A DNA stretch of 48,401 nucleotides, filler included, from Jimgerdemannia flammicorona (Eukaryota), in assembly GCA_003990765.1 (NCBI GenBank). It is 2 parts of 2 records of this genome, joined end to end, with 100 filler letters (N's around TTAATTAATTAA, not from the genome) between each part and the next. Parts side by side here need not be neighbours in the genome. Positions count along the whole stretch, not along the records: positions 1 to 24,153 come from RBNJ01001018.1; 1 more part is not named here. The stretch is one strand, 5' to 3'. The position numbers and the translations under genes are program-made. Shown one piece after another: positions 1 to 30,972 of this stretch. Position 1 is the first letter of the stretch; each line of letters opens with the position of its first letter. The notes under the pieces were generated by a model. It did no database searches. It was not told the origin of the DNA and saw only the letters and a list, made by a program, of their open reading frames with translations.

Positions 1-32
<32 letters not shown>

Positions 33-35
<3 letters not shown>

Positions 36-1197
36 ATTTTTCCCTCTTAGAGTCTCCAGCCTCTCTTCCTTTCATATTATAGCATCAGTATCAGTACTAG
101 TAGACTCATCTCACTCCTTCTTCAGAATATTCTATAGTTTAACCTCTATAATCTCAATCATCTGCTCACTCTTTATCATATCAGATACTCTAAACCAAAC
201 TCTATATATATCTCTCAACTCTATATCCTTCACATTCTGTATAGCTCAAGCATTAGTCCTCAACTTTTACTTCTTTTTTTTCTTTCAGATCTCAAGTATA
301 CTATCATTATAGAGCTACTGGTCTCTTACTTCCCTACTCTCTGCTACTTTCTCCAATACTGCTCCTGTCTTATCTCTGACCTAAGTGCTCACTATTGTCT
401 ATCTGAGCTCTCCTTAGTACTAGTAGTAAATGGCTCCTTTATATCTGCCAACAGGTCTCTCTGGTACTTTCTCTCCTATATCTTCTCTTACAATATCTTA
501 TCTATATAAATCTGCTTTCCATTTACTATCTCTAAGTATATTGATGCTATATATATCTACCAAGCAATTGCTATATACTCCACTGCTCTACTGAGCTCTT
601 TCAAGACCTTCAACAGATCCTTTTTTACCCTCACTACATACCTTATAAATAAATATACTCTATATCATCATAGATAGCTAGTTACAAGCCTTTCTGATAG
701 TCTTCTTTTTAGTAAATTAGAGTCAGATATCCACATCTCTAGTTCTGAATTAGATCCTGACCTGAAATCTAATATTTATAATATTACTATACTCTATTAT
801 GATCTTCTCTATCCTCTTTCTTATCTCAGTCATTATTACTATAAGTACTCCTTTTACTAAAAGCTGAATAACTCTTGGGTCTCACTTTAAATATTGAGCC
901 ATTAGTATTACTATCTTATTAACTATCAATCTAATCTTCAAAGCCTCTTCTAATAGTCTTATTTTTTCAAAATCCACTCCAACTTTATTCTATCTTTTAT
1001 AGAAACTTCACTAAAGCAGCTTTAGCTATCTGCTTTAAGATCAGCTCCAGAACTATCTTTGCTATCACTATAGCTCTTAAAAGTATAATATGATGATAAA
1101 TTCCAAGATTAACTTCTTAAGTAATATAGCCACTACTAGGTCTATTATATTATCTATCAGATATTTGTTCCCTTTATATCCTATCTGCTCAGCTCTG

Positions 1198-1199
<2 letters not shown>
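33..1199 (-). mobile_element. Old, heavily decayed LINE ORF1-region fragment; host of the younger LINE, probably continuing at ~7200-7560
   Basis: Bases ~600-1170 align by eye with 5990-6570 of the adjacent LINE (e.g. aaattccaagattaacttcttaagtaat vs aaactccgagattgacttcttgagcaat), with many C>T/G>A changes. Confidence 0.75.
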
Positions 1200-1231
<32 letters not shown>

Positions 1232-1374
1232 GTCACTTGGACTTCCTTTCTTTATTATACCCATAAATATAGTGAACTCACTCCCTAACTGATCCCCCTA
1301 GGGGCCCTCCCCCCACCTACCCCTACTCTACAAAAGGCTACTTTGTCCAATACTAACTCTACTCTTCCATCACT

Positions 1375-4300: not shown

Positions 4301-4935
4301 TCAGAACCCCAACACTCAGCTGTCAGAATCTAGTCAATCCTTATACCCAAGCCATTCACCCAATATATGTAGACCCTGGTGTTGCCCCACCATGTTCTGC
4401 CCATATTCCCTAAGGAGCTCAAATTCTCCACCTCCTCCCATGCATCCAGACCTCCACTTCTCTCCCCTGCACTCCTCCCTCCATCTGTTCTATCTAGATG
4501 CTGATCCCAAACCATATTAAAGTCCCCACTGAGAACATCAACCTCTTTCTCTAAGAGAATACCCTCCTCTAGCAGCTTCTTAATCTATGCAATTCTCTCG
4601 CCCCTAACTGCTGGGCAGTAGCAAGAGCCAACCCTCATCAACTCTCACTCTGGCTGATGCCAATCTCCCCAGACCAAGTGATCACCCCAGCTCCTGATTT
4701 CCCTCAAGTCTCCTCTATCCTTCCTCACCAGAATTGCCACTTTTCCAAACCAAGCAATAGTCCTACCCCATTCTCTAGTCCACTCTACCCGATCATCCTC
4801 ATCCTCACACCATATATCCTATAGTAAAAAGAGATCAGCCTCCAATCTTTTGAGCCAAGTAAAAATGTTCTTATACTGCCCAGATCTCCTTAACCCATTC
4901 ACATTCAAAGAGAAAATGTTGGTTGTACTATTCAT
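1375..4935 (-). pseudogene. LINE ORF2 (AP endonuclease + reverse transcriptase), disrupted by stops and frameshifts
   Basis: Starts MNSTTNIFSLNVNGLRR (APE motif I) at 4935. RT motifs LDQKKAYD (~3130), GVPQGDPLSSVLY (~2940) and AFADNI (decayed YADD, ~2830). Confidence 0.9.
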
Positions 4936-4949
4936 AAGAAATAATGTTA

Positions 4950-6801
4950 TATGGCAATCCCATCCTCTACAAGTCCGCATTTGGCTCCTCCTACACCAAG
5001 TCCAAGTTATATTCAGTAGTTAGTTCCCTTTCTCTAGCTTTCCATACCTCCAACCCTTCCAGAAGTTCTACCATCACCCTATCTTCTCTCTCCTCAAAGT
5101 TCTTGTGATACTCCAGACAGGCCTCCTGCCAGAGCTGCAAACCATGACACTCTGCCCAACAGTAGGCTGCCTGCTCACCAGTGACCACTACCAGCTCCAC
5201 CTTCCTCACCTCATCAATCTCATAATCCTCCTCCTCCAGGAAGATTGCAAGAATCTCCACCTTCAGCACCTCTACCACTCCATCTCCATACAGAATTTGC
5301 ACCCAATACTCCTCAGGTATTATCTGCAGATCCACTTCTCCCAATGCCTCAGCCACAAGGTTATCTATCACCTTACTCATCCACAGCAAGTTCCCCACCT
5401 TCTTCTCACTCAGAGTCTCTGGCCACCCTGCATCCAACATCATGGTATCAGCTCCTACACTGGCAGCCTCATCCCACTCCTCCTCAGGGATATCCACCAG
5501 CTTATCCTCACCAACTGCCACCACCTGGCCCCCTTTCACCACATCGAGGACCCCAAAGTGCACTCACTGAGCCCCCTGCATCAGTATATCCACTGTTGTC
5601 CCTCTCTTCACAGCCGGGCCCCTCCTGATAAGAGGGGGGGGGGTGGTATCCAATTTCTGCTCCCAGACCTCAAATGTGCCATCAGTATAGAGATCCTTGC
5701 TCAGTATCTTCCCAGCTCCTTCCTTGCTTGCCTCCACCTCTCCTTTGCCTTTACTAGCCCAGACACTGGCTTCAATGCCCCCAGACCCCTTATCTCCCTC
5801 TGCCTTCTTCTTTGCCTCTTCTTTCATACTTGCTAATAGCTCTCTCTGTCTCCTGCACCCCTGTACCCACTCTCACTGCCTCTTGTTAGTATGAATATAC
5901 TTCCCATCTACAATCTCCAGATGTGTTGACTCCTCAAACACTCTTCAGGCCTTTGCTCTCCTCTCAACCATATCACTCAACTCCTCCAGAGCCTTCAACA
6001 AGTCCTCTTCCTCCTCTTCACTCCCTTTCACCTTTGATACCTTACAGATAAAAGTCTCCCACATTAGTACTGAGGGCCAGTTACCTATCTTCCCTGTGAC
6101 CTCCTTCCCTGCCAGCCAAATCCTGACATTGACATCACCCATTCTGAATGTGGTCCCCTCCTACATCTGGAAGCCAATGTCCACCACATCACCATACTCT
6201 ACCATCACCTCCTCTACCCTCCTCCTAGTCTCCTCCTTTGTCACCATTAGTACCCCTCTCACCAGAAGCTATACCACCCTGGGGTCCCATCTCAAGCACT
6301 GTACCATAGGGACCACCACTTTTCCAACTACTACTCCAATCTTCAGGGCCTCATCCAGTGGGCCCACCTCCTCAAAGCCCACCTCAACCCCCTCCAGACT
6401 CTTCAGGAACTTCATTGAGGCTACCCTAGCCACCTGTTTTGAAATAAGCCCCAGGACCATCCTCACCATCACCACTAAGTCCTAAAAGTACAAGGTGGCC
6501 ACAAACTCCGAGATTGACTTCTTGAGCAATGGGGCCACCACCAGCCCTATTATACTATCTGCCAGGTCTCCCTTCTGCATTGGAGGCCCCTACTCCACCT
6601 TGTCATTAGCTCTCATATCTCTTTTTTTTTCCTGAACCCCTATCATACTCCTATCAACAGTTAGTCCCAGCTATAGTCCCTTCAGCCCCTATACTTACCT
6701 CTCCCCTCTGAGGGTCACTTCTCCTCCTGACACTAGTCTTGTCCTTCTCATCAGCAGTGCTATCTCTGGTTTCAGCAGACCATCCACTCACCTTTATCTT
6801 G

Positions 6802-6860
<59 letters not shown>

Positions 6861-7089
6861 GTTACTTGGACTTCCTTTCTTTATATACCTTTATCTTGTC
6901 AGTAAAGCTAGAGAGACCAGGCCTTCCCCCAGATTCACCAGACACTAGTCCTTCTCCAGAGCCTTCACCACCCTTCAACCCTCTAAAAGCCCCCATCCTT
7001 AATCTATAACCTCTCTCCACATGCTGCCAGCCAAAAGTCCCAGGTCCGCCTGATCCAGCATGCCTGTCAGAAATCTTGCTCAATGACAT
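4950..7089 (-). pseudogene. LINE ORF1, disrupted
   Basis: Series of acidic/coiled-coil minus-strand ORF fragments (4991-5563, 5564-5827, 5945-6142, 6269-6475, 6862-7089) directly upstream of ORF2 and inside the TSD-bounded element. Confidence 0.65.
6804..6886 (-). mobile_element. Extremely 5'-truncated copy of the same LINE family (~29 nt of 3' end + poly(A)) inserted in ORF1
   Basis: poly-T followed by atagttacttggacttcctttctttat matches 1229-1255. Flanked by 14-bp TSD acctttatcttgtc at 6790-6803 and 6887-6900. Confidence 0.9.
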
Positions 7090-8511
7090 TTTTATAGTAT
7101 CTTTTCTCTGAGTTGTATTGAAAACTGTTGCTTGAAGTTTGTGTAATATGAATTATACAAGAAAGAGGTGGCAACTGCCAATGTCTGCTCAGCTCTGCTA
7201 TTAGTAGTCATATGTATCTAAATTTTTTGTCAGATTTCCAGTCATATTGTCATTAGTAATCTCACCTCTACTCTTAGCTATAGCCTCACTAGTCTCTATA
7301 TTAACCTCTCTAGCCATTAATCCACCAGTTCTTTCAGTACTTATTTTTTTCTTCTCCTCAGTCTTACTACTCTAAGTACTTCCAAACTGGTCTCCTGTCA
7401 TTATCTTATTAATAAAACTCATCAGCCTCTACTCTTCTCTATCTCTACCTAATAGTTGACTTCTATTTTACTTTTCTTACTCACTTTCACTACTAAAGAA
7501 CTCCAATCTCATGTTATAGCCCCTTCTAATATATTATCACTTAAAGGTCCTAGATTTATTCAACTCAGTATACTTATTAGAATACTTATTGATCACTATA
7601 TTATTATTATTTTTCTCTAATAAACTATATAAAAGTATATTGTAAAGTTTATATATATAATATGAGAAAAATTATATTTTCTTTTTCTTTATTAACTTAA
7701 TTATTGCTATTTATATTATTATAATGAGATTTATTTATTTATTTATTTTTAATTATTTTAGAAGATATTAATATTTGAGAATATGTTATCTTTTCATTTA
7801 ATATATAAGTATTATTTAAATTTTTAATTATACTTTTCTTTTTTTAAATGAGATAAAAAAAATAAATTAGTTAACTTCTTCTTCAGAATTTTCACCCCTG
7901 TTATAATAACTGAGAACTATCAACTTTAGCTTCAAAATATAAGATATAATAAGATAAATCTTTCTTTAAAAAAATTTAAAAACTATAACTAAAACATTCT
8001 ATTCAAAATTATTAATTAATAGTATTGCAAAGAGATTGACTTGTTATTAAGATTCTAGCCCAGTATTTTTTAATATCTTGACAACTTTAAATATTACAAT
8101 TAATAATAAAGACAGGCTGATTATACGCTTGCTAATATTCCAAGCACATCACGTGATTTAATGAGATTTTCAGTTTAGCCGATTTTGGTTACATGACTGA
8201 GGTCTTTAGGTTGGCTGTGCTATATCTATCTAGGCCACGAATCCAGTCTCTCAGAGTGCCATTGTGACCGCAAAGAACTAGCATACTTTTAAGCAATGTT
8301 ACATTCCCATGAGTCATCTACGGTTATACCTGTCCAAACTCTCAATCAAAGGACACGAGCTCGCCATGGTTGAAAAAAATAAAATGCACCATGAAATCTC
8401 GGGTCCTAACTGTCGAGACCCAATATGGCTTAGTAAAAAAATTGGGATTTCCGTTTATATAACCGATACTGCAAACGCCTCGGCCTATGACATATTAAAT
8501 ATGGATATATA

Positions 8512-8754: not shown

Positions 8755-9040
8755 GATATATCTGTGGCCAGACATATATGTATATAATGATGATTAAATG
8801 CCACTGGAAGCAAACTCTCAAAATGGCAATCACCGATGAAGCAGAAACTTGAGACACGATGGGTATCACACAAGCTAGTACTATAATAGCCATGTTTACT
8901 AAAGAGAATGTTCCAGGTATCGTGTGAGGTTCCGAAAAGAGATAGCCGTCACAATTTCGGTACAGCACGATAACTTGCAGACAACTCTCAACTCTTCTCT
9001 TGATCACCGAAAGAAATATCAGTATACACGTTTGCCCCCC

Positions 9041-12000
9041 ATGTCCTCCTCCTTCAAACTTCCAACTCCTTCACTTGACGAAATCAAAGCCTGGGATGAA
9101 AACAGAGTCTTTGAACACTTTCAGCATCCCGCTCACAAATTGAAACCCGAATATGTCGCAATCTTACAAATTCAGGAAGTAGACGGGAACGCTCTTTTTC
9201 AGATTACCAAAGAAGATCTATTGGGACCACCATATAACTTACCTGGTGGACCTGTGGCTAAAATCATCGGTGAGATCGCTCGATTACGAGGTAATTGATG
9301 ATTATCAAATGCAAACGCTTCACGGAATTATTTTCAAGTAAATGATTCCGCTAACAGTTTGAATATTATTCGAATGTTTGGTATCTTAGCTCACTGGAAT
9401 TTTAACATTTCATTTGCATCTAATCTAGGAACAGGCGTCGGTCAGCGTGCATCTCTGGAAGGTGTTATCTTTTTTTTTTTTTTGGTGACAGTCATGTGTC
9501 TTAACACACGAATTCACCATCTTGATTTAATACATAATTTGATTATAGAAAATCACATTGGCGATAAGGAAACCATCGCATTCGAAATGAACACGAGCCT
9601 GCGAAACCTGAATCTATCGGGTATGTAGAAGTGAAGTACGCATTCATCTGTTTAGTGTTCTGCTGGCAACTATGGGTAAAAATTTATATGTTCTACTGTA
9701 GGCAATGGTACTGGCGAGGAGGGAGCCAGCACTCTAGCCGAAGGACCGAAAATGAACACAAACCTGCAAACTTTGGATCTAGACGGTATGTAATAACCAA
9801 GTTCATTGCCTTTATTAATTTAATTTTTAGTTTTCTTTTCTTTTATTTGCTTTTAATTTTATTTTACATTCATCTGTTTGTTGTTGCTGATGGGCTTTTA
9901 TGTGTTCCTCTGTAGGAAATACCATTGTCAAGGATGGAGCCAGCGAACTGGCAGAAGTACCGGAAATGAAAACGAGTCTGCAAAACCTGAATTTAGAACG
10001 TATGTAGGAAGAAAGAAAATTACATTTTTACATTCTCCTGTTTAATCTCCTAGCTGAAAAACACGTGAATACATTTTATGTATTCTTCTGTAGGAAATAC
10101 CATTGGGGAGAAGGGAGCCAGCACATTAATCGAAGCACTGAAAACGAACACCATCCTGCCAACTCTGAATGTAAAAAGTATGTCGGAATGAAGCATATTT
10201 ACATTCTTTACACTTACATTCTGAGCTGTCAGTCATGCATGTGAATGTTATATGTTCCTCAGTAGAAAATGACCTTATCACACAAGCAGAAGCCTTGGTA
10301 ATGATTAGAAGCTTACAAAATCTGGATCTACTGGGTATATATAAATGAAGCACATTACATTTTATTCCTTCTTTTTCGATCCATTTGTTCCATTTCCTGA
10401 CTAACAGTCGTGCATATATATTTATATGGTTCTCTGTAGGGTGTGGAATTGGCGAAGAGGGAGCTAGCATCCTCGCCGAAGAACTGAAAATGAACACGAG
10501 CCTGCAAAACCTGAATCTGGAAAGTATGTTAGTTATTTTGATGCTTTAGCAGACAACCACATGTATAAATTTTTGTATTCCTCTATAGACAATGGTATTG
10601 GCGAGAAGGGGGCCAGCGCACTAGCCGAAGCACTGCAAATTAACACGAGCATGCAAGACCTGAATCTACAATGTAGGAATGAAGCGCGTTATATTTTGCA
10701 TTCATCTCTTTAGTGTGCTGGCGGACAACAATGCATATAAATTTTATGTGTTCTTCTGTAGACAATGATATTAGCGAAAACGGTGCCAGCGCATTATCCG
10801 AAGCATTGAAAATGAACACGAGCCTGGAAAATCTGAATCTATTGGGTATACAGAAATGAAATGCATTACATATTTATATTCATCAGTTTAGTGTTCTAGC
10901 TTACGATTATGCATGTACATCTTATGTAGGCAATGGCATTGGCGAGAAGGGAGCAAGCGCACTTGCCGAAGCACTGAAAATTAACACGAACTTGCAAAAC
11001 CTGAATCTACAATGTATTTAGGAATGATGTACATTATATTTTTGCATCCATCTACCACTCATATCCGTTTATATGTTCCTCTGTAGCCAATGGAATTGGC
11101 GAGAAGGGAGCCAGCGCACTAACCGAAGCACTGAAAATGAACACAAGTCTGCAAAACCTAATTCTATGGTGTATGTAGGAATGAAGCATATGTTATTTTG
11201 CATCTGTTTAGCATTTCGGCCGACAAACACGCATATATAATTAATGTGTTCCTCTGTAGACAACGACATTGGCGAGGAGGGGGCCAGCGCACTAGCCGAA
11301 GCACTGAAAATGAACACGAGCCTGCAAAACCTAGATCTAGGCAGTATGTTGCGAATTATATTTTGTATTCATCTTTTTTGGCATTATTGCTAATACTTAT
11401 GCATACCATTTTATATCTTCCTCTCTAGACAATGGTATTGGCGAGAAGGGAGCCAGCGCGCTAGCCGAAATATTGAAAATAAACACGAGCCTACAAAACC
11501 TGAATCTGGAAAGTATGTAGTAATTAAGTGCATTATATTTTCACAACCATCTGTTTAGCATTCTAGTTGACAACCATGGGAAAATTTTTTGTGTGTTCCT
11601 CCCTAGGAAATATCATTAAGGAGAAGGGAGCCAGCGCATTATTCGAAGCACTGAAAACGAACACCATCCTGCAAAATCTGAACGTAACAAGTGAGTAGGA
11701 ATGAAGCATGCTACATTCTTCGTACCCGTGTTCTGGCTGACAGCCATGTATGTAAATTTTATATGTTCCTCGGTAGGCAATGGCCTTACAGCAATCGCAG
11801 AAGCCCTGATAATGATAAGGAGCCTACAAAATCTGGATCTATCGGGTATGTATGAACGAAATGCATTATATTTATTATTTTCAATCTTTCTGTTTTGTGT
11901 TCCGACTGACAACTATGCACATATATATTTCTCCGTAGGGTGTGGTATTAGTGAGAAGGGGGCCAGCCAAATAGCTGAAGCACTAAAAATGAACACGAGC

Positions 12001-13775
12001 CTGCAAAGCCTGAATCTAAGAAGTATGTTGGATTGAAGTGCATTATATTTTTGCATTTATCTGTTTTATGTTTTAGCAGACAACTGTGTATATTAATTTT
12101 ATGTATTCCTCTGTAGATAATGATATTGGCGAGAAGGGAGCCAGCGCACTAGCCGAAGCACTGAAAATTAATGCGAGTGTGCAAAACCTGAATCTAACAG
12201 GTATATAGGAGTGAAGCGCATTATATTTTTACATTCATTTTTTTAACGTTCTAGCTGAAAAATACGCGGATTTTTTTTTTTTTGCTATTACTCTGTAGAC
12301 AGTCATATTGGCGAGAAGGGAGCCAGCGCTCTAGCCGAAGCACTGAAATGGAATACGAGCCTTCAAACCCTGAAATTATGGAGTACGTAGGAATGCAGCG
12401 CATTACGTTTTTACATTGATCAGTTTGCCATTCTAATCGATAAAAATGAATATATATTTTGTGTATTCCTCTGTAGACACTGTCTCTTTCAAAAAGGATA
12501 TTGGCGATAAGGGAGCCAACGCACTAGCCGAAGCACTGAAAATAAATACGAGCCTGCAAGACCTGGATCTAACAAGTATGTAGGAATTAAGTAAAAATAT
12601 TTTGCATTTGTCTAACTAACCACGCGTACACATTTTGTATGTTCCTCTGTAGACAATTGCATTGGCGAGAGGGGAGCTAGCGCACTGGCTGAAGCACTGA
12701 AAATCAACACGAGCCTGCAAGCCCTGTATCTACATAGTATGTAAGAATGATATTTGCATTCATCTGTTAAGTATTCTAATTGACGCGTATACTTTTATTT
12801 GTTCCTCTTTAGGCAATGTTATTGGCGAGAAGGGCGCCAGCGCAATAGCCGAAGCACTGAAAATGAACACGAGCCTGCAAGTCCTATATGTAGGAGGTAG
12901 GAATGAAGCGCATTTTATTTTTGCATTCATCTGTTTAGTGTTCTAGCTTACAGCCACGCGCATACATTTTTTGTGTTCTTCTGTAGTCAATGATATTGGC
13001 GAGAAGGGAGCCAGTGCACTGAGCGAAGCAATGAAAATGAACACGAGCGTGCAAAACCTGAATCTAACAGGTATATTGGGATCAAGCGCAAGATATTTTT
13101 GCAGTCAGCTCCTTGATGTTCTAGTTGACAAGCATCCATATACATTGTATGTGTTCCTCTGTAGAAAACGGTATAGGTGAGAAGGGAGCCAGCGCACTAG
13201 CCCAAGTACTGAAAATGAACACGAGCCTACAAATCCTGAATCTATTCTGTATGTAGGAATTAAAGCGCATTATATTCTTTTACTTATTTGTTTATTGTTC
13301 TACCTAAAACCACTCATATACATTTTATGTGTTCCTCTGTAGCCAATGGTATAGGCGACAAGGGAGCCAGCGAATTAGCCGAAGCATTGAAAATGAACAC
13401 GGGTCTGCAAAATCTGGATCTAACATGTATGTAGGAATGAAGAATATTCATTTTTGCATTCATCGGTTTAACGTTCTCGCTGCTAACCAGGTGTGTACAT
13501 TTTATGTGTTTGTAGGGAATGGTATTGGCGAGAAAGGAGCTAGCGCACTAGCCGAAGCACTGAAAATGAACACGAGCCTACAAGTCCTTTATGTAGGAGG
13601 TAGGAATGAAGCGCATTTTATTTTTGCATTCATCTGTTTAGTGTTCTAGCTGACAATCACACATATACATTTTATGTGATCCTCTGCAGCCAATTGGAAT
13701 ATTGACGAGAAGGGAAGGAGCGCACTAGCCGAAGCGCAGAAAGTGAACAAAGTCATCTACATTAACCAACTTTAG
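9041..13775 (+). CDS. SAM domain + 25 ribonuclease-inhibitor-like LRR protein (gene 1), one LRR per exon
   Basis: Exon 1 9041-9290 (SAM: W..NRVFEHF...ILQIQEVDGNALFQITKEDLLGPPYNLPGGP). Micro-exon ~9429/9435-9461. LRR exons start at 9549, 9702, 9916, 10094, 10266, 10440, 10589, 10762, 10930, 11087, 11260, 11429, 11607, 11777, 11939, 12117, 12299, 12477, 12653, 12813, 12987, 13165, 13343, 13516, with terminal exon 13690-13775 (TAG). All introns GT-AG phase 1; no stops in the spliced frame. Consensus xNxIGEKGASALAEALKMNTSLQxLxLx. Confidence 0.9.
9549..13775 (+). repeat. Tandem array of ~180-bp exon+intron units (LRR array 1)
   Basis: Repeated exon core attggcgagaagggagccagcgcactagccgaagcactgaaaatgaacacgagcctgcaa and repeated intron gtatgtaggaatgaagcgcatt...ctagctgac...tgtgttcctctgtag. 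Confidence 0.95.
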
Positions 13776-14281
13776 CGGAAACGATTGGACTTCCTATTAT
13801 AGCGAATTTCAATGTATACACCTAGTTAACCGCAGTTTTGCGATCAGGCCATAAAAATACCGTCTGTTTAGTTTTACCTTGCCAATATGGATTCCAAGCA
13901 TCCCAGACCTTTGCGTTCCCATCATACTACTTCGGGGGTGTGACTATGAAAGGTCGATGGTGAGAGTCTTTGTCAATTATGTGGCTCGGCACAATGAGTC
14001 ATGTCAATTTTGCAGGTAGCACAAGTTCGTCATATGACAACCATGCTTACTACAAGAGAATGTTCCGTGTATCGTCATGTGAGGTTTGAAACACAAAAAG
14101 GGATTGCAGTGCAATTTTTGGAGAATGTCGAAGGACCTGATTACCGAGCTTATGGAGCTCGGAGTTATTTTACACGGATAGGTCCCACACGGATAAATAC
14201 CTTGCGAAAATGGTTTTCGTATCGGCGGGCAACTCTCTTCTTGATCACCGAGAGGAAAATCGGTATACACATCAACCCACC

Positions 14282-14699
14282 ATGTCCTCCAAACTTCCAA
14301 ATCCTTCGCTTGACAAAATCGAGACCTGGGATGAAAATAGAGTCTTTGAACACTTTCAGCTTCCGGCTCTCGGATTGAAGCCCGCGCATGCAGAAATCTT
14401 CCAAAAACAGGAAGTCAACGGCAAAGCTCTTATTCAGCTTACCAAAGAAGATCTATTGGCACCTCCATATAACTTGCCTGGTGGACCTGTGACCATAATC
14501 ATGAAAGAGATTTCTCGATTAGGCGGTAACTACAGTCAAATGCAATGGTTTCAAGAAATTATTGTCAAATAATGGTTTTGCCAATAGTTATAAATATTAT
14601 TCAAAGTTCCGTTACCTTTTCTCATCGAAACTTAAACATTTCATTTGTATATATCTGACCTATGAACAGGGTTCGGTCAGTATGCGTTTCCAGAAGGCG

Positions 14700-14737
<38 letters not shown>

Positions 14738-17700
14738 CTTTTTGTAATGGCCATTAGTCACAGTTCACAAATTTGTTATCTTGAATTCTAACATAATTTG
14801 CACTTTAATTATATGTAAAAGCTATCAGCCAAAGTAACGTAAATGCTATTATCAAGAAAAATGTGGCTGACGTCGATGAACTGAAGCATAATATCGAATC
14901 GGTGAGACAGAAGATCGAATCGACAATGAATAAGAAGGATTTTATTTTTTATTTTTTATTTTATTTTTATTTTTTGCAAATTTTATAAAACTTTCCTGAT
15001 TATATTTCATTTTCTCAACATGTATATAGATCGTACAGGGCATAGAGCGTAATACAGAAAAAATAATGAGCGATATGGAAGACATAAAAGTCGATACAAG
15101 AAACATCCACAGCAGCCTCCAGGAACTTAGCGGCAAGGTTGACGGTCTGCCTAAGCTTATGCTTGATATCCATGAGGATACAGTCCCGCGACTCTTCTTC
15201 ATTTTTCCCGAGGATGGTCATTGGTTGGCACCATCAATCGACAGCCTCTTCACCAAAAAGTTCCGTCTATACTTTCTGTGCGAGCACGAAACCACCACGA
15301 CGAAATATTTCCATTTGGCATATCATGGCGGTTATCCTGTCGTCCGACCACGCGAGGTATATTATTTCGATATTCGGTATACCTTGCACTTCAGCTGTCG
15401 AGATACAATTATTTATTTTTCTGCTTATCATATGTCTACTGGCATTTATTTTAGTTTGTAGCTAAATATGGACCATATATACGTACGGTAGGTCTTCTGT
15501 TTGAATCTGAGCGTCCGAACTCTCTTTGCAAACCATCTAACATTTATCGTGCGAAATAGATTATGCCCTATCTAATAACGGCTGTTCGCTTGGGGGAACG
15601 CCTATTAGAATGCGTTCCTGCAGTCGGAAAATCAGCAGCAGAAGTCCTACGGGCGGGCGGTGACGTTGCTTCGATAGCATACAAGGCCACAGAATCGTCA
15701 ATCTTCACAAAACCTGAACTTGAGTTCTGCGCGCAGACTGAGAAAATGTTTGAGATACTTGGAGACAACCCCGAGGCTACTGACAAGCAGGTCACGAAAT
15801 ATACGACTGATACTCCGTCGTTTGTTCAGACGCAAGGAAAACCCCTGGGAATGATGGAAAGGCCTGATCTACGGGAACTTCAAGGTACAGTAATACATTC
15901 ATTTTATCTATTCAAGTGCGCATGCACGGATTTTACTTTATGCTCATTATTTCTTTTGAATTTTTGTTTATAGCTTACCTTCAGGGCTTGGATAATTCCA
16001 ACCGACTTGGAAATCTGCAGCGCGTGCTCCGTCATGGGGAAAATGGTAAAACAACTGTGCGGTGGGTGTGCAAGCGTCACGCCTCGGAATGGGAGACGAC
16101 AAATGCTGTTCGGGATGTTCATATGGTCATCAAGAGTAGCTCCATAGATAACGGCGTGACGTTTGACGACGCGACTTGGGAGCTGACGTTCGCATTGGTT
16201 TTTGGTCTCAATATTCATCTTGTATCTTTATATCTATTTTGTTTTCATACTCAAGATATTGTATTTATTTTAATATCAGGATTCAGAACTTGCCTAATGG
16301 TTCTCTGCATAAATTTCGAAATTCGGTGACGCGCGCAATGTCTGGTATCCCTTTGCGGAAAATCAGGTGGTTAGTTTGACTTTTAGAAACCTTTGCCTGA
16401 TCATAGTGACTAATGAGTGAATAAAATTGTAGCATTATAGATTGTGAAAAGGCTGATTCAGAAGATGTAGAAGCTCTGGTTAATGCCACAACCACCATTG
16501 AAATTCTTAAGTAAATTATGTTAAATTTTTGCTTTATAAACTTAATAAATTAAATATTAACACACTCTTTGCTATTGATATATATCTAGACTTAAAATGA
16601 AGAATATGCAGTATGATCACTTATCATTCAATGTTTTTATTTGACAATAGGTTATAGATCAGAAATCTCTATAGTAATAATTACTAATGAAATTAATCTT
16701 TACTGGTTTATAGATATAAAAATATTCTTCAGAAGTGTCTTCAGCTTCGAGAATTGGATCTCTCAGGTATATTATAATAACTGTTTAATATTTTCATCTG
16801 TGGCGATTTCGTATGAGCTTGTGTAGAGCAATATTTACAGCCAAGAGCAGCTGAGGTTGTGCAAATGAATATGTGTCTTCGAAGTTTGGGAATGTACATA
16901 TGAAAGCAAACTACATCTTTTCATTTATTTCTAACTACCAGCTATATATGTTATTTAGGCAGTCATATTCGCGATAAGGAAACCAAAGTACTAACTGAAG
17001 TATTTAAAAAGAGCACAATCCTGCAAAATCTGAATCTCTCAGGTATGTAGAAATGAAGCATATTTTATTTTTGCATTCCTATGTTAGTATAATAGTTGAA
17101 AATTGTGTATATAATGTATCTGGTAGACAATTACATCGGCGAGATGGGAGCCAGGGCACTAGCCGAAGCACTGAAAATGAACACGAGCCTGCAAAATCTG
17201 GATCTATATGGTATATGAGAACAAAGCGCGCTGATTTTTTCTTTTATTTCGCTTTTTATTTTATCATTTTTCGGTATTGCCGACGGCTGTGAATATATAT
17301 TTTATGTGTTCCTCTGTAGGAAATACCATTGGCGAGAAGGGAGCCAGCGCGCTAGCCGAAGCATTGAAAGTTAACACGAAACTACAAAACTTGGATCTAG
17401 GCAGTATGTAGGAATGAAGTGCATATTCATCTATTTGGTATTCTTGCTAATAACTACAGATATACATACATTTTATGTGTTCTTTTGTAGACAATAGCAT
17501 TGGCAAGGGAGCCAGCGCACTAGCCAAAACATTGAAAATGAACACGGGCCTGCAAAATCTGAATCTGGAAAGTATGTAGGAATGAAGACCATCCTAATTT
17601 TACATTCATCTAGCTGAAAATCATGTGAATACATTTTATGTGTTCCTATGTAGGAAATGGCATTGACGAGGAGGGAGCTAGCGCATTAGTCAAAGCACTG

Positions 17701-17913
17701 AAAACGAACACCATTCTGCAAACTCTGAATGTGAAAGGTGTGTAGGAATGAAGCGTGTTACATTCTTTGCACCCGTGTTTCTTTCTGACGGGCCTACATG
17801 TGATTTTATGCGTCCTCCATAGATAATGCCTTTACCGCACTATCAGAAGCCCTGATAATGATTAGATGCCTACAAAATCTGGATCTATCAGGTATGTATG
17901 AACGAAGCGCGTT

Positions 17914-17958
<45 letters not shown>

Positions 17959-19353
17959 TTTTTTTTTTTGTTTTTTTTGATCTATCAGTTTTGTATTCTG
18001 GCTGACAGTCATGCATATATATTTATTTGTTTCTCCATAGAGTGTTGCATTGGCGAGAAGGGAGCCTGTGCACTAGCCGAAGCATTGAAAATGCACACAA
18101 GCCTGCAAATCCTGAATCTGGAAAGTATGTTGAATTGAAGCGCATTATATTTTTGTATTCACCTGTTCAATGTTTAGACACATATACATTTATGTGTTCC
18201 TCTGTAGACAATTATATTGGCGAGAAGGGAGCTAGCGCACTAGCCGAAGTACTGAAAATGGACACGAGCCTTCAAAACCTTAATCTGGAATGTATGTAGG
18301 AAGGAAACGTATTATATTTTTGATTATATTGGTTTATTGTTCTAGCTGACAACCACACACATACATTTCTGTGTTCCTCTATAGTCAATGGTATTGGCGA
18401 GAAGGGAGCCTGCGCACTAGCCGAAGCGCTGAAAACGAACATGAGCCTGCAGCACCTGGATCTATGGGGTATGTAGAAATAAAGCCTATTTTATTTTTGC
18501 ATTCATCTGTTTAGTGTTCTAGCTGACAGCCATGATATTATACATTTGACGCATTTCTCTGAAGGCAACGGTATTGGCGAGAAGGGGGCCATCGCACTAG
18601 CCGAAGCATTGACAAAGAACAAGAGCCTGCGAAACCTGGTTCTAATCCGTATGTAGGAAGATGCGCGTTATAAAAACTTGCATTCATATGTTTAGTGATC
18701 TAGCTGACAATCACGCGTATACATTTATGTGTTCCTGTGTAGGAAATGATATTGGCGAGAAGGGAGCCAGTGCACTAGCCGAAGCACTCAAAATGAACAC
18801 AAGCTTGCAACACCTGGATCTATGGGGTATGAAAGATTGAAGCACTATATTTTTTATTCATGCATTTAGAATTCTAGCTGACAACTGCATATTTATACTT
18901 TATGTATTACTCTGTAGAAAATGGCATTGGCGAGAAGGGAGCCTGCACACTAGCTGAAGCACTGAAAATTAACACGAGCCTGCAAACCCTTAATCTACAC
19001 AGTATGTAGAAATGAATGCATTAAATTTTGCATTTATCGGTTTACTATTCTAGCCGACAACTTGGTGTATACATTTATGTGTTTCTCTGTAGACAATCAT
19101 ATTGGCGAGAAGGGAGCCAGCGCACTAGCTGAAGCACTGGAAATGAACACGAGCCTGCAAGACCTGAATCTACATTGTATGTATATAGGAATGAAGTGCA
19201 CTATATTTTTGCATTCAACTGTTTAGTGTTTAGGTGACAACCTCATATATATTTTTTATGCATCCCTCTGTAGTGAATGGCGTTGGCGAGGAGGGAAGGA
19301 GCGCACTAGCTGAAGCGCAGAAAGTGAACAAAGTCACCCGCATTAGAGTATAA
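14282..19353 (+). CDS. SAM + coiled coil + central PRLF/RLYFLCE domain + 14 RI-like LRR protein (gene 2), paralog of gene 1
   Basis: Exon 1 14282-14525 (SAM). Micro-exon ~14670-14696. Central exons ~14822-14901, 15030-15356, 15455-15487, 15560-15884, 15974-16187, 16280-16366, 16433-16510, 16590-16610, 16714-16766, 16827-16883 (some boundaries uncertain). LRR exons start at 16959, 17127, 17320, 17491, 17654, 17823, 18041, 18208, 18385, 18565, 18743, 18918, 19093, with terminal exon 19274-19353 (TAA). Confidence 0.82.
16959..19353 (+). repeat. Tandem array of ~180-bp exon+intron units (LRR array 2)
   Basis: Same repeat unit as array 1. Confidence 0.95.
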
Positions 19354-19559
19354 TATCGGCGGAAACGAGGTGGAATGGGAATCCTATTATGGCGAACTTT
19401 GATAAGAAAATATAATGGCAATCCCCACCCTTTTTCTATCATGTGACTGGCGACCAACACTCCCCCCCTACTTCTCTGTTAACGAATTAAATCGTGGCGA
19501 GGAGCTAGCGAAGAGGTTCCCGCATCCCGTAAGGAAGCGAATATATTTTGACTTACGCC

Positions 19560-20580
19560 ACGAGTTGGAGAGATGTCTTTGTCGCTTTGGTCAACGTCAT
19601 TTAAGGTGTTTCGTCTAACAAAGGAAACCTCGACTAGTTCAAGTGGCTTGTTAGCTTGTCCAGAAAGAGTGCTAGAGTATCGTGCTGTCGTTGAAAAAGC
19701 GATACCGGTATTGCGTCTGGTTGGAGAAAGGTTAAAGCTTCAATAATATTTGCTGCCAACGGACTTCGCTCTTGAATTTTTGGAATGGCAAATTCCACGC
19801 CGTAGCGATTGTCTCCTTGTATTTGTTTGGGGTAGCATTGCCCAGCCGGTAAAGAGCAGTTGCGGATTTATTTTAATTAGCCTCAGATAGGATATAGGTA
19901 ATATTTCCGTTTCAATGTATGAGCGCACAATATTGATGGCTAATGGAAAGCGATACAGCTCTTGTGAGATTTCCTTGGCGGTTTTGAAGTTGTCGGAAGG
20001 AGGGTGTGAGCCAAGCAAGGAAGGGCCTCCTCGTTCGCCATCTTGTCCACCTTAATCAGTTATCTCCGTCGGTTGTGGAAAAGTAATCGACTACATCTTT
20101 CGTGCTTTCCATGTTATCCAAAAGTAACAACCATCCCATTCCTTGGCTCGAGCCATCCCCGAATCCGATCAATCAATACGTCCTCATTTCTGGAAGCATC
20201 GACTTGAATGTTTATCATAGCTTCGTCGTCAACCCTCAAAATGCATCTATAGTCGCCTTGCTACTATCAACATCAAGTTAGAAGATAAAGGAATATTCTT
20301 CGCGATGCTGGTAGCAATATTTTAGCATAAGCTCGGATTTTCCCATCCTACCAATGCCTTTGAGAACCCCCGATATGCGCACGCCTTTCGATTGGTTGGT
20401 TTCCATTGCTTCATACCTTTGCCCAGGATGTCCTCTCGGCTTTCAAATCGGTTTGATGTCTCAATCCCAACTGAACATAATTTTTCGTCAATGTTTGCGG
20501 CACTGGCGATTGGCTTGCCGACCGATTCTGGCATTAATTGGGAGGATAGGCCCAATGTTCAAGGTTTTATAAGTGCATGA
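19560..20580 (-). pseudogene. NB-ARC (STAND NTPase, fungal NLR-type) pseudogene fragment
   Basis: In order on the minus strand: NRFESREDIL (F.GRE..L), Walker A LKGIGRMGKSELMLKY (~20365-20320), Walker B GWLLLLDNM (~20135-20110), GLPL-like FPLAINIVRSYI (~19950), then TAWNL.F...PLAANIIEALTFLQPDAIP. Contains stops and frameshifts. Confidence 0.8.
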
Positions 20581-20947
20581 CATATGCAATCATATTTTAC
20601 ACAACCTGTGAAATATGTCATCCATAGGTGCCACAATTTAGTGTGATAACTGAAAAGTAGAGTAGAGTTTTGAGAGCTAGTTGCATCATAGCCAAAGACT
20701 GCGGCTTGCCGTTATTTTTTTCTCATAATCGATATTCTACATCCCATCCCCAAAGTAGCGCGATGGTCTGGTAGGGGTAAAGGTGTCCTTTTGTGGCGAT
20801 TGAGAGGACATGGTGCATGACGAAGTCTGGGATATTTCGAATTCATATTGGCATAAGAGTGCGTGGGTGAATATAACATACGGTAATCGGCGTGATGTAT
20901 TTATGGCCTGAAGGTATAGGTCCCATTATACCTCGTTTTCGCCGATA

Positions 20948-21201
20948 TTATTCATAGTTAATGCGAATGCCTTTGTTCACTTTCTGCGCTTCGGCTAGTG
21001 CGCTCCTTCCCTTGACGCCAATATGCCAATTGGCTACAGCGGAAGACATAAAATTAATATGCGTGGTTGCCAGCTAGAACACTTAACAGTTGAATGCAAA
21101 ATTATAATGCGCTTCATCTGTTAGATCCAGAATTTGCAGGCTTGTGTTCTTTTTCACTGTTTTGGCTAGTGCGCGGGCTCCCTTCTCGTCAATACCATTC
21201 C
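20948..21201 (-). pseudogene. Orphan 3' end of a third LRR-exon gene (one 84-nt LRR exon + terminal exon), inverted relative to genes 1 and 2
   Basis: Exon 21201-21118 encodes NGIDEKGARALAKTVKKNTSLQILDLT with its GT donor deleted; homologous intron; terminal exon 21033-20948 encodes NWHIGVKGRSALAEAQKVNKGIRINYE*. Confidence 0.88.
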
Positions 21202-21255
21202 CTACAGAGGAACACATGCGCGGTTGTTGGACCATGAATTTAGCATGGCAGATAG

Positions 21256-24153: not shown

Positions 24154-24253
24154 NNNNNNNNNNNNNNNNNNNNNNNNNNNNNNNNNNNNNNNNNNNNTTA
24201 ATTAATTAANNNNNNNNNNNNNNNNNNNNNNNNNNNNNNNNNNNNNNNNNNNN
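24154..24253. other. Assembly gap / artificial contig linker
   Basis: 44 N + TTAATTAATTAA (stop codons in all frames) + 44 N = 100 bp. Confidence 0.95.
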
Positions 24254-24317
<64 letters not shown>

Positions 24318-30809: not shown

Positions 30810-30972
30810 TGTTCTCCCCTAATAAAGATAATAAAGAGGAAATGAGATATGCATCAGCATGATTACCAAATAAAGGAAATAAGGAAACAGACTAATAAGA
30901 GAATACCCACTCACCTCGAATAAGCTTCATTATTCTCATATGCTTCAATAAGAGCAAGAAGCCGAAGTTATA

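What the first reader, a model, noticed from the sequence alone, without database searches (positions are those of the whole stretch)
9041..19353. Fungal SAM-LRR receptor-like genes built from interchangeable one-LRR-per-exon cassettes (candidate diversifying immune system)
Seen: two intact tandem genes with 25 and 14 LRR exons. Each internal LRR exon has a length divisible by 3 (mostly 84 nt; variants 69, 72, 81, 99) and is flanked by phase-1 GT-AG introns that are themselves homologous, so the exon+intron unit is the unit of duplication. Exons can therefore be skipped, deleted, duplicated or swapped without a frameshift. Known: one-repeat exons occur in vertebrate NOD/CIITA-type LRR regions and in the exon-shuffled LRR/TPR genes of the brown alga Ectocarpus. 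Characterised fungal NLRs use WD40/TPR/ANK sensors, not LRRs. SAM domains are oligomerising signalling modules. Inference: a little-described fungal non-self sensor family whose specificity is diversified by exon shuffling and/or alternative splicing. The ORF track misses it because no exon gives a long ORF.
Basis: partly seen in the sequence, partly recalled or inferred. Interest (0 to 1): 0.92.

Follow-up and report, generated by a model that had tools for sequence, protein, structure and literature searches.

The report
Fungal LRR genes, one repeat per exon
Two neighbouring genes of an Endogonales-type soil fungus encode long leucine-rich-repeat proteins in which every 28-residue repeat sits on its own 84-base exon, a gene layout known from vertebrate NOD-type immune receptors, but nothing yet shows that the fungus uses it to generate receptor diversity.

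Summary
Gene A (9041-13775, 27 exons, 785 aa) and gene B (14282-19353, 25 exons, 904 aa) give open spliced frames. All 37 internal LRR exons have lengths divisible by 3 (31 are 84 nt), and all their flanking introns are phase 1. The introns are homologous to each other (69% identity against 36% for shuffled controls).

Between the SAM-like exon and the LRRs it carries a helical segment and a ~245-aa conserved domain with no Pfam family and no fold match. This domain defines a large family in Mucoromycota fungi (Endogone, Mortierella, Dissophora). Some members also carry RI-type LRR arrays. Gene A looks like a B-type gene that lost this centre by an in-frame deletion.

Variation among repeats is concentrated on the x-positions of LxxLxLxxNxL, the concave face. 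Tests for positive selection were inconclusive. No units are near-identical, no RNA data could be used, and there is no NTPase domain.

Best reading: members of an uncharacterised family of cytosolic LRR binding proteins, whose arrays grew by exon+intron duplication. An immune role and combinatorial splicing remain hypotheses. This is a new variant of a known kind, of moderate interest.

The parts
9041..13775 (+). Gene A: 27 exons, 785 aa. It consists of a SAM-like exon, a 33-nt linker exon and 25 LRR exons.
   Evidence: Spliced model with an open frame; 26 of 26 introns are GT-AG.
9041..9290 (+). Gene A exon 1: SAM-like N-terminal module. It ends in phase 1.
   Evidence: Pfam SAM_1 E 0.018, 15.8 bits, below the cut-off of 23. 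The weak PDB hits are all SAM domains. It is 69% identical to gene B exon 1.
9549..13775 (+). Gene A LRR array: exons 3-27 (24 internal exons plus the terminal exon), all with phase-1 borders. The array includes two 84-69-84 blocks at 10094-10523 and 11607-12022.
   Evidence: TRF period 178 at 11943-13749.
14282..19353 (+). Gene B: 25 exons, 904 aa. It consists of a SAM-like exon, a linker, a helical segment plus conserved central domain, two degenerate LRR-like exons and 14 LRR exons.
   Evidence: Spliced model with an open frame. The frame stays open if exon 2 and/or exon 11 are skipped.
14282..14525 (+). Gene B exon 1: SAM-like module.
   Evidence: Pfam SAM_1 E 1e-4, 23.0 bits against a cut-off of 23; SAM_2 20.3 bits against 20.5. 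PDB hits are ETV6-SAM 7e-7, Sfmbt 5.5e-4 and SARM1 SAM 0.01.
14670..14696 (+). Gene B exon 2: 27 nt, homologous to gene A exon 2, with a GC donor. Its use is doubtful.
14822..16510 (+). Gene B exons 3-9: a helical segment and the ~245-aa conserved central ('X') domain, which has no known family. Intron phases are mixed (0, 0, 0, 1, 0, 2, 2).
   Evidence: Exon 4 (15030-15356) matches Endogone proteins at E 9.6e-32, and 154 cluster representatives match at E<=1e-3. Exon 7 aligns to the family profile (hhalign probability 89.8%, E 1.7e-6). The end of exon 6 aligns just upstream of that. No Pfam, NCBIfam or PADLOC hit. The end of exon 7 is uncertain (16197 or 16221).
16714..16883 (+). Gene B exons 10-11: degenerate LRR-like exons of 53 and 66 nt. 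Exon 11 has a weak GTTTGG donor.
   Evidence: by eye. Neither exon is hit by the nhmmer exon profile.
16959..19353 (+). Gene B LRR array: exons 12-25 (13 internal exons plus the terminal exon), all with phase-1 borders. It contains one 84-69-84 block at 17654-18124.
   Evidence: TRF period 175 at 17974-19330.
20916..21217 (-). Inverted relic of a third family member: the last two LRR exons plus the 3' flank. The donor of the penultimate exon is lost.
   Evidence: nhmmer hits at 21199-21120 and 21024-20967. 85% identity to the 3' end of gene A and 83% to that of gene B. Sequence read.
19630..20442 (-). Stop-ridden relic of a STAND/NB-ARC-type NTPase gene beside gene B. It is context only and not part of the two genes.
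   Evidence: The ORF pieces show a P-loop-like 'GRMGKS' and an 'LLLLDN' motif. Two pieces hit NCBIfam FxSxx_TPR collinearly (E 1e-3 and 1e-4, far below the model's cut-off). Pfam DUF7779 E 0.029.

Best explanation
These are two tandem paralogous protein-coding genes of an Endogonales-type fungus. They belong to an uncharacterised, Mucoromycota-wide family of cytosolic proteins.

The family layout is kept in gene B. It has an N-terminal module (here SAM-like), a helical segment, a conserved ~245-aa domain of unknown fold with conserved Cys/His residues, and a C-terminal ribonuclease-inhibitor-type LRR array. Gene A is a derivative that lost the helical and central part through a deletion of roughly 2.1 kb. 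The deletion stayed in frame because the flanking introns are both phase 1.

In this lineage each 28-residue LRR lies on one 84-nt phase 1-1 exon. The arrays grew by tandem duplication of ~175-nt exon+intron units. The repeat scaffold is under purifying selection. The residues predicted to line the concave beta-sheet face are free to vary, so each repeat offers a different binding surface.

Shown: the gene structure, the homology of the units, family membership of gene B, and the pattern of variation.

Inferred: the proteins are soluble binding or sensor proteins. The SAM-like head may mediate assembly. They may act in recognition of non-self or of endobacteria. The diversity is germ-line, produced by old duplications and point substitution rather than by ongoing shuffling.
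For: - Gene structure.
- Unit homology: (introns 0.69 against 0.36 for shuffled controls).
- Coding constraint: 37 of 37 exon lengths are divisible by 3 while intron lengths are not. The scaffold has pN 0.138 against pS 0.328, and scaffold codon-position diversity is 0.18/0.13/0.24.
- Variation sits on the LRR x-positions. Five of the six highest-entropy positions are 28, 1, 3, 24 and 26, which correspond to x in LxxLxLxxNxL. Their codon diversity is 0.59/0.53/0.46, against a pairwise intron difference of about 0.31.
- Family: exon 4 of gene B matches Endogone proteins at E 9.6e-32, with 154 representatives at E<=1e-3. Named members come from Mortierella, Dissophora and Gryganskiella.
- Relatives with the X domain plus LRR_6: 2 of 20 proteins scanned (P0019, P0024) and 5 of 56 (P0077, P0079, P0115, P0119, P0122). 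P0122 carries about 21 LRR stretches.
- The Mortierella repeats have the same 28-aa consensus, with positions 1 and 28 the most variable in P0122.
- The C-terminal parts of the family profile match RI and NLRP LRR structures (E 5e-19).
- Gene A as a deletion derivative: the 5' parts are 80% identical through intron 2, A exon 3 aligns with B exon 12, and the 3' ends are 85% identical.
- There is no signal peptide or TM-like segment (maximum 19-aa hydropathy 1.1) and no Walker A motif.
Against: - No RNA evidence was obtained for any junction.
- The spliced proteins could not be submitted to Pfam or AlphaFold. Domain calls therefore rest on single exons and on database relatives.
- The SAM call is borderline, and the 2-sequence AlphaFold model (pLDDT 69.6) matched no SAM structure.
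- Positive selection is not established. Tree-based counting gives nonsynonymous rates at positions 1, 3 and 28 of 1.8-2.05 times the gene-wide synonymous rate, but the site-wise binomial tests have p = 0.4-0.65, and position 26 is at 0.53 times that rate. In the pairwise count the hypervariable codons also have raised pS (0.62), giving an omega of 0.65 against their own dS.
- The central domain has no detectable relative of known function, so the signalling logic is unknown.
- The direction of the change (deletion in A rather than insertion in B) is inferred from relatives, not from an outgroup locus.
- Most X-domain relatives carry no Pfam-detectable LRR.
Confidence: 0.55

Rival explanations
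1. One reading: an actively diversifying receptor system. Exon cassettes are currently being swapped, duplicated or deleted between and within genes, and/or combinatorially skipped during splicing, to generate many specificities.
For: - All 37 internal LRR exons are phase 1-1, and any single skip keeps the frame.
- The junction codon is split between exons and encodes one of the most variable residues.
- Units are as similar between genes as within them (0.697 against 0.691 and 0.695), and positional orthology is barely detectable (219 of 2000 and 95 of 2000 permutations reach the observed scores). Past exchange could cause this.
- Exon and intron best matches often point to different units.
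- An inverted 2-exon relic lies 1.6 kb away.
- Human NLRP3 shows that such a layout can be used for alternative splicing (PMC6642158, abstract and section 6).
Against: - No pair of units exceeds 0.90 exon identity or 0.89 intron identity, so no recent duplication or conversion is visible.
- No extra or inverted LRR exons lie inside the introns of either gene, unlike Ectocarpus (PMC3341825 passages).
- The recognisable 84-69-84 blocks keep their internal order in all three copies.
- The uniform distances are equally explained by an old burst followed by saturation under scaffold constraint.
- No transcript data exist for isoforms.
Confidence: 0.15
2. Ordinary, non-immune LRR interaction proteins, for example an inhibitor, adaptor or regulatory scaffold. 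The arrays expanded by neutral tandem duplication, and the variable positions simply reflect relaxed constraint on surface residues.
For: - Measured against their own synonymous changes, the variable codons look about neutral (omega 0.65; site tests non-significant).
- There is no NTPase, death-fold, TIR or other recognised immune signalling domain.
- RI-type LRRs occur in many non-immune proteins. The PDB matches include RNH1, LRRC34, DRC5 and RanGAP1.
Against: - The family is lineage-restricted and strongly multiplied: 154 representatives at 50% clustering and 65 distinct loci from the metagenome scan.
- The locus holds tandem copies, a relic of a third member and a degraded STAND gene. This is a birth-and-death pattern more typical of recognition genes.
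- The variability is confined to the concave-face x-positions and does not extend to all surface positions of the helix side.
Confidence: 0.22
3. Non-functional repeat DNA or decaying pseudogenes that only look like genes.
For: - No exon-containing protein from this species was found in the protein collection.
- Gene B has one GC donor and one weak donor.
- Relics of related genes lie next door.
Against: - Thirty-nine LRR exons have no stop or frameshift despite about 30% divergence between units.
- Exon lengths are conserved modulo 3 in 37 of 37 cases, while intron lengths drift.
- 35 of 37 introns contain in-frame stops, so the openness is exon-specific.
- The scaffold has pN/pS well below 1.
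- Splice donors, branch-point-like CTGAC motifs and pyrimidine tracts are conserved in the aligned introns.
Confidence: 0.06

Closest known systems
Vertebrate NOD/NLRC-type NLR genes (LRR exon organisation; Hoss et al. 2019, PMC6642158, abstract and section 6 read)
   Same: RI-class LRRs, one 28-aa repeat per exon, the exon border at the same place in every repeat within the beta-strand region, strictly frame-preserving exons, and a cytosolic protein.
   Different: No NACHT or other NTPase domain. The N-terminus is SAM-like rather than CARD or PYD. The organism is a fungus. Whether the intron position and phase match the vertebrate ones was not tested here. Alternative splicing is shown for NLRP3 but not here.
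Ectocarpus LRR-ROCO genes (Zambounis et al. 2012, PMC3341825, passages read)
   Same: One LRR per exon of fixed length, the exon+intron unit duplicated, variable concave-face residues, and a proposed receptor role.
   Different: The Ectocarpus exons are 72 nt and encode plant-specific-type LRRs. The proteins carry Roc-COR GTPase domains. Intronic and inverted LRR pseudo-exons show very recent shuffling, and these are absent from the two genes here.
[quoted passage not shown] 2019, PMC6564038, passages read)
   Same: Arrays of equal-length LRR exons with one uniform intron phase and a split 'junction' codon. Growth was by clonal expansion of the exon+intron unit.
   Different: The Tetrahymena exons are 90 bp with phase 2 introns, there are thousands of genes, and the organism is a ciliate. 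Here the exons are 84 nt with phase 1 introns, and only two genes plus one relic are visible in the window.
Hypothetical proteins of Mortierella antarctica (P0024, KAF9989650.1), Gryganskiella (P0019) and Endogone sp. FLAS-F59071 (P0001/P0002)
   Same: They share the conserved central domain. In P0024, P0019, P0122, P0115 and P0119 it is followed by the same 28-aa RI-type repeat consensus.
   Different: No SAM-like head was found in those scanned. Their gene structure could not be examined. The related loci recovered from a metagenome are single ORFs of about 900 aa with no intron in the domain and no RI-type LRR.
Fungal NLRs with highly similar WD40/ANK/TPR repeats (reviews PMC10197012 and PMC5658179, passages read)
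   Same: Tripartite layout in gene B, internally similar C-terminal repeats with variable surface positions, and paralogue-rich, birth-and-death loci.
   Different: Those proteins have NACHT or NB-ARC domains and no LRRs. Their repeats are not split by introns and are kept near-identical by recombination.
SARM1 and LRSAM1 (recalled from general knowledge; only the SARM1 SAM domain appeared in a call)
   Same: SAM domains combined with recognition or signalling modules in innate-immunity-related proteins.
   Different: Different domain order and partner domains (ARM/TIR; RING). Homology was not tested beyond the weak SAM hit.

Membership tests
RI-type leucine-rich repeat (Pfam LRR_6, RNI-like) | Tandem 28-29-residue repeats with an LxxLxLxx(N/C)xL core followed by a helical segment. 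| tested here: met
   Among the 31 units of exactly 28 aa, L25 is present in 31 of 31, L22 in 28, L27 in 26 (V in 5), N2 in 26 (C in 3) and I4 in 30. The consensus is xNxIGEKGASALAEALKMNTSLQNLxLx.
RI-type leucine-rich repeat (Pfam LRR_6, RNI-like) | A Pfam LRR_6 score above the gathering cut-off. | tested here: inconclusive
   3 of 3 single exons tested hit only LRR_6, but at 11.8-17.2 bits against a cut-off of 23.4. The model straddles the exon junction, and the spliced protein could not be submitted. Relatives score 145 bits (P0024) and 279 bits (P0122).
SAM domain (Pfam SAM_1 / SAM_2) | An HMM score at or above the curated cut-off. | tested here: inconclusive
   Gene B scores 23.0 bits on SAM_1 against 23, and 20.3 bits on SAM_2 against 20.5. 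Gene A scores 15.8 bits on SAM_1 against 23. The PDB sequence hits at E<=0.1 are all SAM domains.
SAM domain (Pfam SAM_1 / SAM_2) | The five-helix SAM fold. | tested here: inconclusive
   The AlphaFold model built from 2 sequences has pLDDT 69.6. Foldseek against the PDB gave no match at E<=0.001 and no SAM entry among the top rows. The model is too weak to decide.
NLR / STAND receptors | A central NACHT or NB-ARC P-loop NTPase. | tested here: not met
   Neither model contains a [AG]xxxxGK[ST] motif. None of the exon 3, 4, 6, 7, 8 or 9 translations of gene B hits NACHT or NB-ARC.
NLR / STAND receptors | A tripartite layout: an N-terminal module, a central module and C-terminal repeats. | tested here: met
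   Gene B has the order SAM-like, then helical segment plus X domain, then LRR array. Gene A lacks the central part.
Modular one-LRR-per-exon genes (NOD/NLRC type) | One 28-aa RI-class LRR per exon, with the border at a fixed repeat position and all exons frame-preserving. | tested here: met
   31 of 37 internal exons are 84 nt. 37 of 37 have phase-1 borders, within the codon of repeat position 1. 37 of 37 single-exon skips keep the frame.
Modular one-LRR-per-exon genes (NOD/NLRC type) | Demonstrated alternative use of LRR exons. | not testable with these tools
Exon-shuffled LRR receptor families (Ectocarpus, Tetrahymena) | A homologous exon+intron unit as the repeat. | tested here: met
   Intron identity is 0.69 against 0.36 for shuffled controls. 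TRF reports periods of 175 and 178.
Exon-shuffled LRR receptor families (Ectocarpus, Tetrahymena) | Signs of recent shuffling: near-identical units, and intronic or inverted LRR pseudo-exons. | tested here: not met
   The best unit pair reaches 0.90 exon identity and 0.89 intron identity. No extra profile hits lie inside the genes' introns. The only extra hits are an inverted 2-exon relic downstream.
Exon-shuffled LRR receptor families (Ectocarpus, Tetrahymena) | Positive selection on concave-face residues. | tested here: inconclusive
   Positions 1, 3 and 28 change at 1.8-2.05 times the mean synonymous rate, but the site tests give p = 0.4-0.65. Pairwise omega for the hypervariable codons is 0.65 against their own dS.
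Mucoromycota 'X-domain' family (no Pfam entry) | Presence of the ~245-aa conserved domain (motifs PRLF.(I/V).P, FRLYFLCE, H..(A).H.GY, LGNL.R...G.V.WVC..H). | tested here: met
   For gene B, exon 4 gives E 9.6e-32 and exon 7 gives hhalign probability 89.8%. Exon 6 matches only weakly (13 columns). Gene A lacks the domain.

The most novel reading that the evidence does not exclude
Mucoromycota fungi may have an NTPase-free, NLR-like class of cytosolic receptors. The layout would be a variable N-terminal signalling head (here SAM), a new central assembly domain, and an RI-type LRR sensor. In Endogonales the sensor would have acquired, independently or by very old descent, the same one-repeat-per-exon, frame-preserving layout as vertebrate NOD/NLRC genes. 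Array length and surface could then be varied by exon gain, loss or skipping. Recognition of endobacteria such as the Mollicutes-related endosymbionts would be one possible role; these are reported to have captured host LRR genes (PMC10507103, passages).
Probability: 0.12. Interest if true: 0.85.

Novelty: new variant of a known kind. Interest (0 to 1): 0.5.

Why it matters
Reviews of fungal immunity state that fungal NLRs lack LRR sensors (PMC5658179). These two genes are clear examples of long RI-type LRR arrays in a fungus, with variable concave-face positions and a gene layout otherwise described for vertebrate NOD/NLRC genes, brown algae and ciliates. The arrays are attached to a large, unnamed domain family restricted so far to Mucoromycota.

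If expression and isolate-to-isolate variation were shown, this would give a concrete candidate for LRR-based recognition in early-diverging, endobacteria-bearing, plant-symbiotic fungi. It would also add a further case of exon-modular LRR architecture.

There is a practical point as well. Such genes are easy to miss in annotation, because no LRR exon exceeds 99 nt.

Tried and rejected
- RNA evidence. The look-up of sequencing runs listed two runs that hold 43% and 24% of the sampled words. Their kind is only guessed, and no RNA holder is listed.
- Whole genome. None is held for this window, so paralogues could not be counted.
- Earlier findings. Nothing was found by place, sequence or words.
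- Homologues of the SAM exon among longer proteins: none.
- SAM self-association. Complex prediction with two copies gave 'no answer'.
- Fold of the central domain. The AlphaFold model has pLDDT 79.6. Foldseek against the PDB gave a best E of 1.4. VIA-align wide gave a best Z of 5.7, covering only a helical hairpin at residues 88-168. The beta-rich parts were barely tested.
- Other searches on the central domain. ESM Atlas gave scores of 0.77 to LRR clusters and then no usable hit. PADLOC and NCBIfam gave nothing beyond coiled-coil noise. A profile search against PDB sequences hit only the LRR part.
- Metagenome scan with the X-domain profile. It returned 65 loci whose contig names share one prefix. 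They are single ORFs without RI-type LRRs. They therefore could not show whether relatives share the exon-per-repeat layout.
- Scan of bacterial and archaeal genomes with the LRR-exon profile. It returned 2 weak hits, in an alphaproteobacterial MAG and a Bacteroidales MAG. The scan used a single narrow pattern, so it says nothing about a link to endobacteria.
- Array order between genes A and B. The collinear chain score was reached by 219 of 2000 permutations, and the best 5-unit diagonal by 95 of 2000. This is inconclusive.
- Literature. Searches for a fungal description of exon-per-LRR genes or of this family listed none. The library holds open-access papers only.
- The vertebrate intron phase and position were not compared.

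Full report
Observation. I read 8800-19800 and built exon models by hand with scripts.

Gene A runs from the ATG at 9041 to the stop at 13775. It has 27 exons, a 2358-nt CDS and 785 aa, and all 26 introns are GT-AG. Gene B runs from the ATG at 14282 to the stop at 19353. It has 25 exons, 2715 nt and 904 aa. Twenty-three of its 24 introns are GT-AG, and intron 2 has a GC donor.

All 37 are divisible by 3, whereas the following introns (65-149 nt) fall 18/10/9 over the residue classes. Thirty-five of the 37 introns carry an in-frame stop. Every intron flanking an LRR exon is phase 1. Removing any single LRR exon leaves an open frame in 37 of 37 trials.

The introns are homologous. Mean identity is 0.69 over aligned columns against 0.36 for shuffled introns, and exons are at 0.73. 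Donors, a CTGAC branch-point-like motif and pyrimidine tracts are conserved. TRF reports the units as arrays of period 178 and 175.

Gene B is not SAM-LRR. Exons 3-9 (14822-16510) encode a helical segment and a conserved domain, and exons 10-11 are degenerate LRR-like pieces.

Exon 4 (109 aa) has no Pfam family. It matches two proteins of Endogone sp. FLAS-F59071 at E about 1e-31 (60% identity by BLASTP; 69% over the matched stretch). It also matches 154 cluster representatives at E<=1e-3 in the exhaustive search. Of the ten representatives looked up, the six that carry a source name come from Mortierella species, Dissophora and Gryganskiella. Exon 7 aligns to the family profile directly after the end of exon 6 (hhalign probability 89.8%, E 1.7e-6; the exon 6 match covers only 13 columns at E 0.066). 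tblastn with relatives found only exon 4.

The domain spans about 245 residues. Its invariant or nearly invariant residues include a C-E-C/H motif and an H-x3-H motif.

An AlphaFold model of the Mortierella antarctica copy, built from a 48-sequence alignment, has pLDDT 79.6. It found no convincing structural neighbour: the best Foldseek E was 1.4, and VIA-align reached Z 5.7 on a helical hairpin only. Its function is unknown.

Some family members carry RI-type LRR arrays after the domain. These are P0019 and P0024 among the 20 proteins scanned, and P0077, P0079, P0115, P0119 and P0122 among the 56 scanned. One further protein in that batch has NHL repeats, one has a sub-threshold protein-kinase match, and most have no Pfam domain at all. 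The C-terminal part of the family profile matches ribonuclease inhibitor and NLRP LRR structures (E down to 5e-19).

The layout 'domain + RI-LRR' therefore predates this fungus. Gene A is best read as a B-type gene that lost exons 3-11. The two genes are 80% identical from exon 1 through intron 2. A exon 3 aligns with B exon 12, and the 3' ends are 85% identical. The deletion stayed in frame because both bordering introns are phase 1.

Organism. The window is two contigs joined by an N44-TTAATTAATTAA-N44 linker at 24154-24253.

An ORF on the second contig is 100% identical to a GT64 protein annotated in Jimgerdemannia flammicorona, and 81% identical to the Endogone sp. protein. On the first contig, which holds the LRR genes, the best evidence is the Endogone match of exon 4. 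'Fungal, Endogonales' is thus well supported, but the species only indirectly.

No protein containing exon 4 (of 192 aa or more) or the SAM exon (of 147 aa or more) from this species turned up in the protein collection.

Domains. The repeats are RI-class, with consensus xNxIGEKGASALAEALKMNTSLQNLxLx. Single exons hit only LRR_6, below its cut-off, because the model spans the junction.

The first exon is SAM-like. Gene B reaches the SAM_1 cut-off exactly (23.0 bits), while gene A scores 15.8. The PDB sequence hits at E<=0.1 are all SAM domains: ETV6, Sfmbt, Scm, polyhomeotic and SARM1. A two-sequence AlphaFold model (pLDDT 69.6) was too poor to confirm the fold.

Neither protein has a Walker A motif, a signal-peptide-like start or a TM-like segment. 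They are thus predicted to be cytosolic, and they are not NLRs in the strict sense.

Pattern of variation. Among the 31 units of 28 aa, five of the six highest-entropy positions are 28, 1, 3, 24 and 26. These are exactly the x-positions of LxxLxLxxNxL that face the concave side in known LRR structures. The sixth is position 18.

Nucleotide diversity at these codons is 0.59/0.53/0.46 for codon positions 1/2/3. In the scaffold it is 0.18/0.13/0.24, and the pairwise intron difference is about 0.31. The scaffold is under purifying selection (pN 0.138, pS 0.328).

Positive selection is not shown. Pairwise omega for the variable codons against their own dS is 0.65. On a FastTree/parsimony count, positions 1, 3 and 28 change at 1.8-2.05 times the mean synonymous rate. 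Position 24 is at 1.0 and position 26 at 0.53. The site-wise tests are non-significant (p 0.4-0.65).

The Mortierella relative P0122 shows the same consensus, with positions 1 and 28 the most variable.

History of the arrays. No pair of units is more than 0.90 (exon) or 0.89 (intron) identical. Mean unit identity is the same within A (0.691), within B (0.695) and between them (0.697).

Only the distinctive 84-69-84 blocks (A6-8, A15-17, B16-18) are clearly related. Collinearity of the remaining units is weak (219 of 2000 and 95 of 2000 permutations).

This fits an old burst of unit duplication followed by divergence under scaffold constraint. It does not exclude past exchange between arrays, but nothing indicates current shuffling. 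The exon profile finds no hidden or inverted LRR exons within the genes' introns.

Surroundings. On the minus strand just downstream lie two relics. At 20916-21217 there is a relic of the last two LRR exons and 3' flank of a third family member, 85% identical to gene A and with its donor lost. At about 19630-20442 there is a stop-ridden relic of a STAND/NB-ARC-type gene. It shows P-loop-like and LLLLDN motifs, weak collinear NCBIfam FxSxx_TPR hits and a Pfam DUF7779 hit at E 0.029. The locus therefore shows gene birth and death.

The metagenome scan with the domain profile returned 65 distinct loci. In the 16 loci examined, the domain lies in a single ORF of 554-1027 aa, about 900 aa in most. 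None of the 65 has an RI-type LRR. This shows massive multiplication of the family in a Mortierella-like organism, but gives no information on the exon-per-repeat layout elsewhere.

Comparison with what is known. Human NOD and NLRC genes have one 28-aa RI-class LRR per exon, a fixed border position and strictly frame-preserving exons, and NLRP3 uses this for alternative splicing (PMC6642158, section 6). Ectocarpus ROCO genes have 72-nt one-LRR exons with very recent shuffling (PMC3341825, passages). Tetrahymena has tens of thousands of 90-bp, phase-2 LRR exons (PMC6564038, passages).

Fungal NLRs are reported to lack LRRs (PMC5658179, passages). LRR genes of Mucoromycota hosts are mentioned only as donors of genes found in Mollicutes-related endobacteria (PMC10507103, passages). 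My searches listed no description of exon-modular LRR genes or of this domain family in fungi.

Verdict. The structure is real and the genes look functional. They are a new fungal variant of a known gene architecture, attached to an uncharacterised family. A receptor role is plausible (family multiplication, concave-face variability, birth-and-death locus) but untested. 'Diversification by exon shuffling or splicing' is permitted by the architecture but is not evidenced. Interest is moderate (0.5). The bold reading, an NTPase-free NLR-like immune receptor class in Mucoromycota, has perhaps a 0.12 probability.

Noticed in passing
window 20916-21217 (-): An inverted relic of the last two LRR exons and the 3' flank of a third family member. 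It is 85% identical to the 3' end of gene A, and the donor of the penultimate exon is deleted.
   Followed up: yes
window ~19630-20442 (-): A degraded STAND/NB-ARC-like gene with stops and frameshifts. It shows 'GRMGKS' P-loop-like and 'LLLLDN' motifs, weak collinear hits to NCBIfam FxSxx_TPR, and a Pfam DUF7779 hit at E 0.029. It lies directly beside the 3' end of gene B.
   Followed up: partly
window 24154-24253: An N44-TTAATTAATTAA-N44 linker. The window is two contigs joined artificially, so features on either side are not shown to be physically linked.
   Followed up: yes
window 30952-31914 and 34078-34659 (+): ORFs with a piggyBac-type transposase domain (DDE_Tnp_1_7, E 1.4e-17 and 9e-8) and a weak zf-Tnp_2 match (18.3 bits, below its cut-off of 24). 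Short tandem repeats lie nearby at about 26.2-27.1 kb and 30.2-30.8 kb.
   Followed up: no
window 36436-37107 (-) and 45280-46323 (+): A NADAR-domain ORF (E 1.8e-18), and a GT64 glycosyltransferase gene whose ORF at 45817-46323 is 100% identical to a Jimgerdemannia flammicorona protein.
   Followed up: partly
window 14701-14743, 17917-17978, also 6804-6857, 24254-24308, 47567-47650: Very long homopolymer runs (T43 and T62 inside introns of gene B; T54, A55 and A84 elsewhere). The two in gene B explain its longest introns.
   Followed up: no
window 1-8000: Strong strand asymmetry (GC skew -0.38 to -0.50 over 8 kb). The long ORFs here have no Pfam hit and low-complexity-looking translations.
   Followed up: no
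loci L001-L065; proteins P0011-P0150: The central domain of gene B defines a large unnamed family. It has 154 representatives at 50% clustering and 65 distinct loci from one metagenome scan, some with two copies of the domain per protein. Cys/His residues are conserved (C-E-C/H ... H-x3-H), and no fold match was found.
   Followed up: partly
proteins P0004, P0006, P0008, P0009, P0010, P0018: Short database ORFs of the family run on into a Val codon directly after the conserved 'P(R/K)E'-type motif at the end of the exon-4 homology, then diverge and soon end. This is where exon 4 of gene B meets its GT donor, which suggests the intron position is shared by many paralogues or orthologues.
   Followed up: no
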